Source of the DNA: a virus
Taxonomy: Duplodnaviria; Heunggongvirae; Uroviricota; Caudoviricetes
Length of the DNA: 14,821 nucleotides
Reading direction: 5' to 3' (one strand)
IMG/VR virus record: IMGVR_UViG_2636415906_000004
Made by a program: the position numbers and the translations under genes. The notes beneath the pieces were generated by a model that worked only from the letters and a program-made list of their open reading frames with translations, searched no databases and was not told the DNA's origin. This document shows positions 6,470 through 7,519 of this stretch, piece by piece (within the stretch, counting starts at the first letter, position 1; each line of letters opens with the position of its first letter).

Positions 6470-6487
6470 GGCTGCCAATTGGCAGCC
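6470..6487. repeat. 18-bp perfect palindrome ggctgcc-aatt-ggcagcc after the 89-aa gene (hairpin or dimer-binding site)
   Basis: Exact palindrome 15 nt after the stop codon. No U-tract follows. Near-identical to the hairpin at 7493-7510. Confidence 0.45.
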
Positions 6488-6520
6488 TAAACTGTAAAGT
6501 GAATTTAAAATCGCCTACAA

Positions 6521-6548
6521 TTGATGCTTAAATTTTGTTCTGTATCAT
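6521..6548 (+). promoter_or_regulatory. candidate sigma70 promoter (TTGATG - 16 nt - TATCAT) for the 268-aa gene
   Basis: Hexamers read by eye in the 165-bp AT-rich spacer between the two moron genes. Confidence 0.3.
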
Positions 6549-6652
6549 CTGCAGGTTTAGGGATATCACAGTAGCTTTCTGACAAGAAGAGTTCTTTTCT
6601 TCTACCAATGAAGTGGTTATGTTAACCTGCGCTAAATCGAGACTGGTGCGGA

Positions 6653-7459
6653 GTGGAATCGAAAGTGTCATATTTTTACAGAAGCAAGAATATTTCAGGT
6701 GTTTCTATAAATGAAGATAGCTTGATTAGCTTAAGCACGGCAATTGTCGAACGCTGCGTTAAAATGAATGAGCAAGCTCAAAAGGAAAGTAGGGAAGTTT
6801 GTGCTCAATGTGTTTTTTTTATTTTGTTCGATGGTAAGGGGTATAAAGTTGATTCTATCGGTGAGCTTGTGAAATACTTTAGACAGGCCACTAGGATTGA
6901 TCAAATAAATTTTACTATTGAAACTTATCAAAGTCGACAGTCTAACAGGATGAATGGATCTTGGATGGAGCTACGAATTGATGAGAGGAATTCAAATAGC
7001 AGCACAATGATTGTAGCATCGGAAGATAATGAGTGGGTTGACTCGTTATGGATTACGATTCAGGATTTACTTAACAAGTGCAAAAATAAATTTAGATTTT
7101 TTAGAACAGCTTGGACTATGTTAAGTATCCAGATTTCAGGTGTGACAGTTGGCTTTTTGCTTAGCTTATGGACAGCCTCAAAACTGGCGCCAAAACTATC
7201 AATCGATGGTGCATTTGCTTTATCATTTATTTGTATCTTTATTTTGTTTTCGAACTTATGGAGCTTTGCTATTCCATTAATAATTAAGCTTATCGACTTT
7301 TTGTTTCCTAGTGTTAAGTTTGTTATTAATGGTAAAAATTACTTTCACTGGAGTGTCCAGGCTATAATTGGAGCGATTGCCAGTGCGGTTATATTGTATT
7401 TTATTAGCTCCATGTTGCTTTTTGCATTAGAAATGTTAAATAGCATCATTAAGAAATAG
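6653..7459 (+). CDS. hypothetical membrane protein (268 aa): ~150-aa N-terminal soluble domain plus 3 C-terminal TM helices; second gene of the AT-rich moron
   Basis: Hydrophobic segments TMLSIQISGVTVGFLLSLWTA, GAFALSFICIFILFSNLWSFAIPLII and AIIGAIASAVILYFISSMLLFALEML. About 25% GC in sampled lines. Start is GTG at 6653 with poor SD spacing, so the true start is uncertain. No family recognised. Confidence 0.6.
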   Translation: MESKVSYFYRSKNISGVSINEDSLISLSTAIVERCVKMNEQAQKESREVCAQCVFFILFDGKGYKVDSIGELVKYFRQATRIDQINFTIETYQSRQSNRMNGSWMELRIDERNSNSSTMIVASEDNEWVDSLWITIQDLLNKCKNKFRFFRTAWTMLSIQISGVTVGFLLSLWTASKLAPKLSIDGAFALSFICIFILFSNLWSFAIPLIIKLIDFLFPSVKFVINGKNYFHWSVQAIIGAIASAVILYFISSMLLFALEMLNSIIKK

Positions 7460-7492
7460 TTAATGAATTAGTTATAATTACATCAATTCTAT

Positions 7493-7519
7493 GGCTGCCA
7501 AATGGTGGCCTTTTTTATT
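7493..7519 (+). terminator. rho-independent terminator (ggctgcc-aaat-ggtggcc followed by T6) after the 268-aa gene
   Basis: 7-bp stem (two G-U pairs) followed by ttttttatt. It overlaps the ATG at 7502, which argues against that start for the holin. Confidence 0.55.

What the first reader, a model, noticed from the sequence alone, without database searches (positions are those of the whole stretch)
6470..7510. Two near-identical 18-bp palindromes bracket the 268-aa moron gene
ggctgccAATTggcagcc (6470-6487) and ggctgccAAATggtggcc (7493-7510) share the same arms. The first is a perfect palindrome with no U-tract, so it looks more like a dimer-binding operator or RNA-processing hairpin than a terminator. 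The second is followed by T6 and looks like a terminator. Reuse of one hairpin at both ends of a gene could reflect a shared regulator (perhaps the 89-aa protein), an attenuator before the membrane protein, or the ends of a small inserted element.
Basis: seen in the sequence. Interest (0 to 1): 0.5.

Follow-up and report, generated by a model that had tools for sequence, protein, structure and literature searches.

The report
Duplicated prophage terminator hairpin, one decapitated
The two look-alike hairpins are copies of a common terminator stem that marks the cargo slot ahead of the lysis genes in lambda-like prophages: the second looks like a working terminator and the first has lost its U-tail, so this is ordinary phage architecture, not a new regulatory site.

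Summary
Both hairpins exist exactly as described. The window is a degraded lambdoid prophage of E. coli. The order is: truncated Q, tR'-like terminator, 89-aa winged-helix gene, HP1, 264/268-aa membrane-protein gene, HP2 with T6, then the holin leader.

HP2 is best read as an intrinsic terminator. The same stem, GGCU(G/A)CC-loop-GG(C/U)GGCC plus a T-tract, sits at this junction in related prophages. It follows unrelated cargo genes, and it also follows tR' directly where the slot is empty. Every stem substitution keeps + strand RNA pairing (G-C, G-U, A-U).

HP1 is the same hairpin by position. In all 13 loci examined, diverged homologs of the 89-aa gene are single-gene morons. Each ends with this stem plus a T-tract, directly before the lysis leader. 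Only the window-type cassette carries the extra membrane gene and a hairpin with no T-tract.

I infer that two morons were stacked. The inner terminator lost its U-tract and probably lets transcription read through.

The operator idea is not supported. The stem occurs in 120 other phage loci that encode no homolog of the 89-aa protein. Nine of ten relatives are asymmetric as DNA. The palindrome overlaps no predicted promoter.

This is ordinary, of low interest.

The parts
5624..5971 (+). 3' remnant of the late antiterminator gene Q (115 aa; full-length relatives are 250-252 aa)
   Evidence: Pfam PF03589 Antiterm, E 6.6e-31. RefSeq annotates it as incomplete, missing the N-terminus. Full-length Q sits ahead of the same cassette in intact prophages.
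5972..6077 (+). Region downstream of Q, homologous to the Q-to-tR' interval of L260. Presumed late promoter and leader (inferred, not mapped).
   Evidence: Aligns with L260, including the conserved block GATTTTC.CAACGATGGG. The role is inferred from lambdoid architecture.
6078..6102 (+). tR'-like intrinsic terminator: stem GACCTCGC/GCGAGGTT followed by a T run. It forms the left edge of the cargo (moron) slot.
   Evidence: Flagged by the terminator scan. Folds at -13.7 kcal/mol, z -4.35. d-score +28. Homology with other prophages ends here.
6118..6148 (+). Conserved promoter block of the 89-aa gene, with an extended -10 element (TG at 6140-6141, TATAAT at 6143-6148)
   Evidence: The block TCAATCTACRTCAAAATCAAWRTGTTAYAAT is nearly invariant upstream of homologs whose proteins are only 42-58% identical.
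6186..6455 (+). 89-aa winged-helix protein gene (first moron)
   Evidence: AlphaFold model with pLDDT 82. Best fold matches are MarR, PadR and HxlR-type regulators, TM 0.6-0.68. Weak DUF2513 hit. phrog_32916.
6470..6487 (+). HP1: terminator-type hairpin GGCUGCC-AAUU-GGCAGCC without a U-tract. Read as the decapitated terminator of the 89-aa moron.
   Evidence: Homologs of the 89-aa gene carry the same stem plus a T-tract at the same position in all 13 loci examined.
6521..6548 (+). Candidate sigma-70 promoter, TTGATG-16-TATCAT, ahead of the membrane-protein gene (weak evidence)
   Evidence: Consensus scan only, 9 of 12 matches. It lies in the 6488-6611 segment, for which no relative was found.
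6665..7459 (+). 264-aa membrane-protein gene (268 aa if read from the GTG at 6653). This is the second moron.
   Evidence: RefSeq CDS. The N-terminus is conserved from about residue 5 in 39-79% homologs. The model shows an alpha/beta N-terminal domain plus 3 long C-terminal helices, with no fold match. phrog_30208.
7493..7516 (+). HP2 (GGCUGCC-AAAU-GGUGGCC) plus U6: intrinsic terminator at the right edge of the moron slot
   Evidence: Conserved at the same junction with variable loops and pair-preserving stem changes.
7517..7567 (+). Conserved leader of the holin_8 lysis cassette, including the inverted repeat CCTCTCA (7520-7526) / TGAGAGG (7537-7543) and the ribosome-binding site
   Evidence: Conserved across 80 holin-selected loci whatever lies upstream.
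7568..7954 (+). Holin gene (Phage_holin_8)
   Evidence: Pfam PF16931, E 8.5e-35.

Best explanation
Both hairpins are copies of one intrinsic-terminator stem, GGCU(G/A)CC-loop-GG(C/U)GGCC. In many enterobacterial lambdoid prophages this stem stands once, just upstream of the lysis-gene leader. It sits downstream of whatever cargo gene (moron) occupies the slot between Q/tR' and the holin.

HP2, with its U6, is the working copy. It stops transcripts that start at the moron promoter or promoters before they reach the lysis genes. In an intact phage, Q-modified RNA polymerase would read through it.

HP1 is the copy that belonged to the 89-aa winged-helix moron. When the membrane-protein gene was joined on downstream, the join fell at the 3' edge of the stem and the U-tract was lost. 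HP1 is therefore now an internal hairpin that most likely no longer terminates. Transcription from the conserved extended -10 promoter at 6140-6148 can then continue into the membrane-protein gene, and the whole two-gene unit ends at HP2.

Shown: the hairpins themselves, their homologs with T-tracts, the pair-preserving substitutions, the empty-slot architecture, and the lack of any link to the 89-aa protein.
Inferred: the order of events, read-through at HP1, and actual termination at HP2.
For: 1. HP2 junction. The stem plus T5-6 lies immediately 5' of the conserved holin_8 leader after different cargo. Loops are AAAT, ATAT, GATT and ACCA, AAGT with stem GGCUACC/GGUGGCC after a 77% homolog of the membrane protein, and an identical hairpin in a Hafnia/Citrobacter record. 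A 62% homolog ahead of a different lysis leader is also followed by GGCTACC..GGTGGCC plus T5.

2. HP1 homology. A profile search found 78-80-aa homologs at 42-58% identity. In all 13 loci examined the gene stands alone between Q/tR' and the holin, ahead of three holin families. Each is followed by GGYTGCC-ATTY-GGYGGCC plus TTTT(C/T)T and then the lysis leader. L276-278 show exactly the predicted single-moron form in front of a holin_8 cassette.

3. Empty slot. In L260, a Q of the same family and the same leader are followed by tR', then 7 nt, then GGCTGCCATCCGGCGGCC-T6 and the holin_8 leader. Several other loci show the same tandem of a terminator-like hairpin directly followed by this stem.

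4. RNA-level constraint. In ten protein-selected or context-selected copies, 70 of 70 stem cells pair. Pair 5 runs G-C, G-U, A-U and pair 3 runs C-G, U-G. Pair 4 is U-G in 9 of 10, which would be an A-C mismatch on the other strand (folds).

5. Terminator scores. HP1 scores -25. HP2 scores +27, tR' +28 and relatives +10 to +32 (the formula was recalled from d'Aubenton-Carafa et al. 1990).

6. Moron features. Low G+C of 30-38% across 5850-7500 against about 50% in the flanks. Homology with other prophages stops at 6101 and resumes at 7490-7493.
Against: - No transcript data exist, so termination at HP2 and read-through at HP1 are predictions.
- Every copy of the two-gene cassette is at least 99% identical. 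HP1 itself therefore shows no variation, and no intermediate form was found.
- The segment 6488-6611 between HP1 and the part of the membrane-gene module shared with relatives has no detectable relative. The joining event cannot be reconstructed.
- The covariation in the ten-sequence alignment is not statistically significant (204 of 500 shuffles reach the observed score).
- The same 18-mer also arises in unrelated bacteria and phages, so independent origin of HP1 cannot be fully excluded.
Confidence: 0.72

Rival explanations
1. HP1 is kept by selection as a working RNA element between the two genes. It could be a pause or weak attenuator site, or a 3'-end-protecting hairpin that stabilises the 89-aa gene's mRNA after processing. 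On this view it is not a mere scar.
For: It is the most stable member of the family, the only copy with U-A rather than U-G at pair 4 (-14.9 kcal/mol, z -3.6). It is intact in every copy of the cassette examined. A second hairpin at 6437-6456 precedes it.
Against: All cassette copies are at least 99% identical, so an intact HP1 says nothing about selection. There is no U-tract (3 T in the first 8 nt) and the d-score is -25. A 7-bp stem is too short for RNase III (established knowledge). Relatives show the ancestral state was an ordinary terminator.
Confidence: 0.12
2. The palindromes are DNA operators bound by a dimeric regulator, perhaps the 89-aa winged-helix protein, which controls the membrane-protein gene from both ends.
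For: HP1 is a perfect 18-bp palindrome. The 89-aa protein has a winged-helix fold like MarR and PadR regulators. HP1 lies about 34 nt upstream of a weak promoter-like site.
Against: The stem plus T-tract occurs in 120 other viral loci, and none encodes a homolog of the 89-aa or 264-aa protein; 113 of these have at least 600 nt of upstream sequence. It also stands in an empty slot. Nine of ten relatives are asymmetric as DNA but pair as + strand RNA. The half-site GGCTGCC is absent from the conserved promoter block of the 89-aa gene and appears only once elsewhere in the window. Homologs of the 89-aa gene occur alone, with no target gene downstream other than the lysis cassette.
Confidence: 0.06
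3. The resemblance is convergence. Two unrelated G+C-rich hairpins happen to share arms because such stems are common.
For: The exact HP1 18-mer is a terminator in unrelated phages (L036, L040, L045). The pattern occurs in at least 120 unrelated bacterial species.
Against: Within this window, chance expectation is 0.01. The stem is tied by position to both gene families and to the slot junction across diverged relatives. 114 of 122 GGCTGCC-type viral matches carry a T-tract, against 18 of 122 and 54 of 135 for the controls.
Confidence: 0.07
4. The hairpins are terminal repeats of a small mobile element that carried the membrane-protein gene in.
For: Two similar 18-bp sequences flank a low-G+C gene.
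Against: There is no transposase or recombinase gene between them. Homologs of the membrane gene in L028, L046 and L638 have the hairpin only at the 3' end and a methyltransferase gene upstream. Homology with those modules begins near 6612, not at HP1. HP1 has homologs after the 89-aa gene where the membrane gene is absent.
Confidence: 0.02

Closest known systems
Morons of lambdoid phages (Juhala et al. 2000 and Hendrix et al. 2000, as described in PMC2920897 and PMC4104026)
   Same: Cargo genes are inserted downstream of the Q-dependent late promoter and upstream of the lysis genes. They have their own promoter and terminator, deviant G+C content, and variable presence between conserved flanks.
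   Different: Here two morons are stacked in tandem. The inner terminator has lost its U-tract, so the pair probably behaves as one transcription unit. The terminator stem is the same after unrelated cargo and in the empty slot, so it behaves as part of the slot rather than of each cargo gene.
Lambda tR' (the 6S RNA terminator) with Q antitermination
   Same: A Q gene is followed by a short leader that ends at an intrinsic terminator (6078-6102). Further terminators lie downstream ahead of the lysis genes, and Q-modified polymerase would override them. This rests on established knowledge of lambda; the layout is.
   Different: Q belongs to a different family (PF03589) and is truncated in this window, so antitermination cannot work here. 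A second terminator of the GGCUGCC type follows tR' in relatives.
Canonical Rho-independent terminators of E. coli
   Same: HP2 has a 7-bp G+C-rich stem, a 4-nt loop and a U6 tail, and lies 33 nt after a stop codon.
   Different: HP1 has the stem but no U-tract and fails the terminator score.
Palindromic operators of MarR/PadR-type winged-helix regulators
   Same: HP1 is a perfect palindrome next to a gene for a small winged-helix protein.
   Different: The palindrome is not conserved as a symmetric DNA site. It is not linked to the regulator gene across phages and overlaps no predicted promoter.

Membership tests
Intrinsic (Rho-independent) terminator: HP2 | Stable G+C-rich stem-loop on the transcribed strand | tested here: met
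   7 pairs, -11.4 kcal/mol on the + strand against -6.4 on the - strand.
Intrinsic (Rho-independent) terminator: HP2 | U-tract immediately 3' of the stem | tested here: met
   TTTTTT at 7511-7516. 7 of the first 8 nt are T. d-score +27.
Intrinsic (Rho-independent) terminator: HP2 | Stem pairing kept in relatives through wobble or compensatory changes while the loop varies | tested here: met
   70 of 70 cells paired. G-C, G-U and A-U at pair 5. Ten distinct loops. Covariation is not statistically significant.
Intrinsic (Rho-independent) terminator: HP2 | RNA 3' ends map to the U-tract | not testable with these tools
   No transcript data are available.
Intrinsic (Rho-independent) terminator: HP1 | Stable G+C-rich stem-loop downstream of a stop codon | tested here: met
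   -14.9 kcal/mol, z -3.6, 14 nt after the TGA at 6453-6455.
Intrinsic (Rho-independent) terminator: HP1 | U-tract immediately 3' of the stem | tested here: not met
   The tail is TAAACTGT (3 of 8 T). The tail on the - strand is GATTGAAG. d-score -25. Not flagged by the scan.
Moron (autonomous cargo unit in a phage genome) | Lies between two conserved phage genes and is present variably among relatives | tested here: met
   Homology with other prophages ends at 6101 and resumes at 7490-7493. The slot is empty in L260. Different cargo occupies it in L002, L131 and L135.
Moron (autonomous cargo unit in a phage genome) | Own promoter and/or terminator | tested here: met
   A conserved extended -10 promoter at 6140-6148 and HP2 as terminator. 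Both are predictions from sequence and conservation.
Moron (autonomous cargo unit in a phage genome) | G+C content different from the phage backbone | tested here: met
   30-38% across 5850-7500 against about 50% on both sides.
Operator of a dimeric winged-helix regulator | Symmetric DNA half-sites conserved in relatives | tested here: not met
   9 of 10 copies have T opposite G at pair 4, making them asymmetric as DNA.
Operator of a dimeric winged-helix regulator | Co-occurrence of the site with the regulator gene | tested here: not met
   None of 120 hairpin-bearing viral loci encodes a homolog of the 89-aa protein.
Operator of a dimeric winged-helix regulator | The site overlaps or adjoins a promoter it controls | tested here: inconclusive
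   HP1 ends 34 nt upstream of the -35 of a weak promoter-like match at 6521-6548. HP2 lies after the gene. No half-site is present in the conserved promoter block.
Operator of a dimeric winged-helix regulator | Specific protein binding | not testable with these tools
   Needs a gel-shift or footprint experiment.
Mobile element with terminal repeats | A transposase or recombinase gene, target duplication, and the element found at unrelated sites | tested here: not met
   Only the membrane-protein gene lies between the repeats. Homologs sit in the same slot with a hairpin only at the 3' end.

The most novel reading that the evidence does not exclude
The GGCUGCC-N4-GGYGGCC hairpin may be a conserved second terminator that defines the right edge of the Q-to-lysis cargo slot across lambdoid prophages. 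It appears there with different Q types, at least three lysis-leader types and many unrelated cargo genes. It may also act as the joint at which cargo is swapped or stacked, for example through template switching or short-homology recombination at the hairpin. On this reading HP1 is the scar of one such stacking event. Its loss of the U-tract fused two morons into one operon driven by the winged-helix gene's promoter, possibly bringing the membrane protein under that protein's control.
Probability: 0.25. Interest if true: 0.45.

Novelty: new member of a known kind. Interest (0 to 1): 0.2.

Why it matters
The finding mainly helps annotation. It explains an eye-catching repeated palindrome as two terminator copies, and it defines the transcription units of an unannotated two-gene cargo cassette found in about 40 of the 5,426 complete E. 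coli genomes.

The one modestly interesting point is comparative. The same terminator stem marks the right edge of the cargo slot whatever the cargo is, and even when the slot is empty. That gives a simple sequence landmark for delimiting morons in lambdoid prophages. It also hints that terminators may be preferred joints in phage mosaicism.

A terminator stripped of its U-tract is a plausible route by which independent morons become operons.

Tried and rejected
1. Relic of a lysis leader after HP1. I thought 6550-6580 (CAGGTTTAGGGATATCAC) might be a degraded lambda-type lysis leader. Local alignment against three leaders was no better than shuffles (161/1000, 765/1000 and 119/1000 shuffles scored as high). 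Rejected.

2. Origin of 6488-6611. blastn in 'distant' mode against the E. coli genomes and phages found only the identical cassette, plus the L146 homolog of the 89-aa gene. Alignment with the L046 and L028 modules shows homology only from about 6612. Origin unresolved.

3. Over-representation of the stem by hit counts. Only the fraction with a T-tract differs.

4. Known RNA families. Nothing reached the gathering score in the window. Only sub-threshold matches of terminator-containing leader models touch HP2 and tR'.

5. Link between the 39% homolog of the membrane protein (L054) and its upstream MarR-like gene. That gene is unrelated to the 89-aa protein (E 4) and appears to belong to a TumE-type pair. 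It gives no support for a conserved regulator-membrane protein pair.

6. Function of the membrane protein. No Pfam, PADLOC or NCBIfam hit and no credible fold match; TM-score at most 0.26.

7. Literature. No paper mentions DUF2513.
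Full report
**Observation**

- HP1 is GGCTGCCAATTGGCAGCC at 6470-6487. It is a perfect 7-4-7 palindrome followed by TAAACTGT.
- HP2 is GGCTGCCAAATGGTGGCC at 7493-7510, followed by TTTTTT.
- They share the 5' arm and differ at 3 of 18 positions.

With HP2 as the query and up to 3 mismatches allowed, HP1 is the only other site in the window. Shuffles give an expected 0.01 sites. As + strand RNA, both fold into the 7-bp hairpin: HP1 at -14.9 kcal/mol, and HP2 at -11.4 with two G-U pairs. The complement of HP2 folds poorly at -6.4. A simple terminator scan flags HP2 and a hairpin at 6078-6097, but not HP1.

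**Context**

The window is 100% identical to the E. coli NC19 chromosome. It is a degraded lambdoid prophage lying between two tRNA-Pro genes, with integrase, yfdP/Q/R-type genes, IS2 and other remnants. Around the finding the order is:
1. The last 115 codons of antiterminator Q (PF03589; annotated as a fragment).
2. A tR'-like terminator at 6078-6102.
3. An 89-aa ORF (6186-6455).
4. HP1.
5. A 264/268-aa ORF (6665 or 6653 to 7459).
6. HP2 plus T6.
7. A holin_8 gene at 7568, then a second holin-family gene, a GH19 endolysin and a spanin-like ORF.

G+C falls to 30-38% across about 5850-7500, against about 50% on both sides. Of 5,426 complete E. coli genomes, 40 carry the whole 5950-7600 stretch at 99% identity or better. 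In about 270 others, similarity stops at window 6101, just after the tR'-like terminator, or starts at 7490-7493, the first base of HP2. The stretch 6102-7492 is therefore cargo in the classic moron site downstream of the Q-dependent late promoter (site described in PMC4104026; moron criteria in PMC2920897).

**HP2**

I selected relatives by protein, not by the hairpin. In those relatives the same stem sits at the same junction, directly 5' of the conserved holin_8 leader, after different cargo:
- GGCTGCC-ATAT-GGCGGCC-T5 after an unrelated 261-aa gene (L002).
- GGCTGCC-GATT-GGCGGCC-T6 and GGCTGCC-ACCA-GGCGGCC-T5 in other holin-selected loci.
- GGCTACC-AAGT-GGTGGCC-T6 after a 77% homolog of the membrane protein (L028).
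- A hairpin identical to HP2 in a Hafnia/Citrobacter record (L046).
- A 62% homolog ahead of a different lysis leader is also followed by GGCTACC...GGTGGCC-T5 (L638).

The loops differ and the stem is kept.

**HP1**

A first search with the 89-aa protein found only identical copies. A 'distant' blastn then picked up a 49%-identical 80-aa homolog in E. coli strain 1943 (L146). A profile built from the two sequences found about 17 more homologs at 42-58% identity, mostly from Citrobacter.

In all 13 loci I examined, this gene is the only cargo between Q/tR' and the holin. It occurs ahead of three different holin families. The unit has the same build each time:
- A nearly invariant promoter block, TCAATCTACRTCAAAATCAAWRTGTTAYAAT, with an extended -10 element (window 6118-6148).
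- The gene, then about 35 nt.
- GGYTGCC-ATTY-GGYGGCC followed by TTTT(C/T)T.
- The lysis leader.

L276-278 show exactly this single-moron form in front of a holin_8 cassette like the window's. HP1 is therefore the positional and sequence counterpart of an ordinary terminator. The window-type cassette is the only version that has both an extra gene downstream and no T-tract. A terminator score gives -25 for HP1. It gives +27 for HP2, +28 for the tR'-like hairpin, and +10 to +32 for the relatives (the formula was recalled from d'Aubenton-Carafa et al. 1990).

**The stem belongs to the slot**

In L260, a 252-aa Q of the same family and a leader homologous to window 5972-6100 are followed by tR'. 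Seven nucleotides later comes GGCTGCC-ATCC-GGCGGCC-T6, then the holin_8 leader. This is an empty slot with two terminators in tandem. Several other loci show a terminator-like hairpin directly followed by the GGCTGCC hairpin. Cargo is thus found between tR' and this second terminator. That explains why unrelated cargo genes all appear to end with the same hairpin.

**RNA or DNA element?**

In an alignment of ten copies chosen by protein or context, all 70 stem cells form standard pairs.
- Pair 5 is G-C (6 copies), G-U (3) or A-U (1).
- Pair 3 is C-G (9) or U-G (1).
- Pair 4 is U-G in nine copies and U-A only in HP1.

U-G pairs are A-C mismatches on the other strand and make the DNA asymmetric. 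The constraint is therefore on + strand RNA, not on a symmetric duplex site. The covariation itself is too sparse to be statistically significant (204 of 500 shuffles reach it).

**How general is the stem?**

114 of 122 matches carry a T-tract (at least 6 T in the 8 bases after the stem), and 17 sit on the holin_8 leader. Two stems permuted in their inner four pairs also reached the limit, but only 18 of 122 and 54 of 135 of their matches carry a T-tract.

None of the 120 loci encodes a homolog of the 89-aa or the 264-aa protein. The exact HP1 18-mer serves as a T-tailed terminator in three unrelated phage contigs. It is a generic, good terminator stem.

**The two proteins**

The 89-aa protein models confidently as a winged helix (pLDDT 82). 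Its best fold matches are MarR, PadR and HxlR-type regulators, with TM 0.6-0.68 and weak E-values. It may well bind DNA. The conserved promoter block is the more likely target, though that is speculation.

The membrane protein has an alpha/beta N-terminal domain and three long C-terminal helices. It has no family or fold match. Its homologs sit in the same slot, usually after an N6/N4 methyltransferase gene.

**Mechanism proposed**

Shown:
- Two copies of one terminator stem, each after its own cargo gene.
- The inner copy lacks the U-tract.
- Relatives have each gene alone with a complete terminator.
- The empty slot holds one copy of the stem.

Inferred:
- A phage carrying the winged-helix moron and one carrying the membrane-protein module were joined by an illegitimate event at the 3' edge of the first hairpin.
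- HP1 no longer terminates, so transcripts from the promoter at 6140-6148 run on to HP2, with or without a contribution from the weak promoter-like site at 6521-6548.
- HP2 shields the lysis genes from cargo transcription in the lysogen and would be overridden by Q in an intact phage.

In this window Q is truncated, so that last step cannot occur.

**Comparison and novelty**

This is textbook moron and late-operon architecture. The hairpins are not annotated, and the stacked arrangement with a decapitated inner terminator is a small variation on it. The recurrence of one stem at the slot edge, independent of cargo and lysis-leader type, is mildly interesting and might reflect a preferred recombination joint. 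I could not test that properly here.

**Limits**
- There are no transcript data.
- HP1 shows no sequence variation among cassette copies.
- No intermediate form was found.
- The 124 nt after HP1 are of unknown origin.

Noticed in passing
window 7520-7543: An inverted repeat, CCTCTCA-N10-TGAGAGG, lies in the holin leader just upstream of the ribosome-binding site. The arms (CCCCTCA / CTGAGAGG in most loci) are conserved in nearly all holin_8-selected loci, while the spacer varies in length and sequence. It may be an RNA hairpin affecting holin translation.
   Followed up: partly
window 6437-6456: A second 8-bp hairpin, AUCGAUGA-GCAC-UCAUUGAU, overlaps the stop codon of the 89-aa gene. It lies within the 9-codon C-terminal extension that only the window's version of the protein has.
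   Followed up: no
window 6118-6148 (also L146, L267, L270, L273, L276 upstream of the homologs): The 31-nt promoter block is nearly invariant while the encoded proteins are only 42-58% identical and the 5' UTRs differ. This suggests a promoter plus a possible autoregulatory site for the winged-helix protein.
   Followed up: partly
window 5266-5971: A Dam-type methyltransferase fragment runs directly into the C-terminal 115 codons of Q. The prophage has lost the N-terminal half of Q and its replication and regulation genes, so late antitermination cannot work here.
   Followed up: partly
window 11525-13474 (- strand): A 649-aa DUF262/GmrSD-like protein matches the PADLOC type IV methyl-directed restriction enzyme model end to end (E = 0). 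This is a defence gene in the prophage remnant, followed by a 13-bp-stem hairpin at 11476-11505.
   Followed up: no
window 13593-14821 (- strand): An IS2 (IS3-family) transposase, orfA and orfB, lies at the right end of the window.
   Followed up: no
window 1-852: A very low-G+C (27-35%) 283-aa ORF with predicted membrane segments lies next to the integrase gene. It has no PADLOC hit and is probably another cargo gene at the prophage end.
   Followed up: no
L054 1-4172 (JGI metagenome contig): A 39% homolog of the membrane protein lies outside any lysis cassette. It sits next to GmrSD_N, HEPN and TumE/MarR-like genes in a defence-island-like setting, which hints at a role in phage exclusion.
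   Followed up: partly
L028, L046, L051-L053, L638: Homologs of the membrane protein are usually preceded by an N6/N4 DNA methyltransferase gene in the same slot. In L046 the first 37 codons are cut off by a stop codon.
   Followed up: no
L137 and L140 (E. coli chromosomes): In two carriers the membrane-protein gene is called as only 164 aa, which suggests it is disrupted in some strains while the 89-aa gene stays intact.
   Followed up: no
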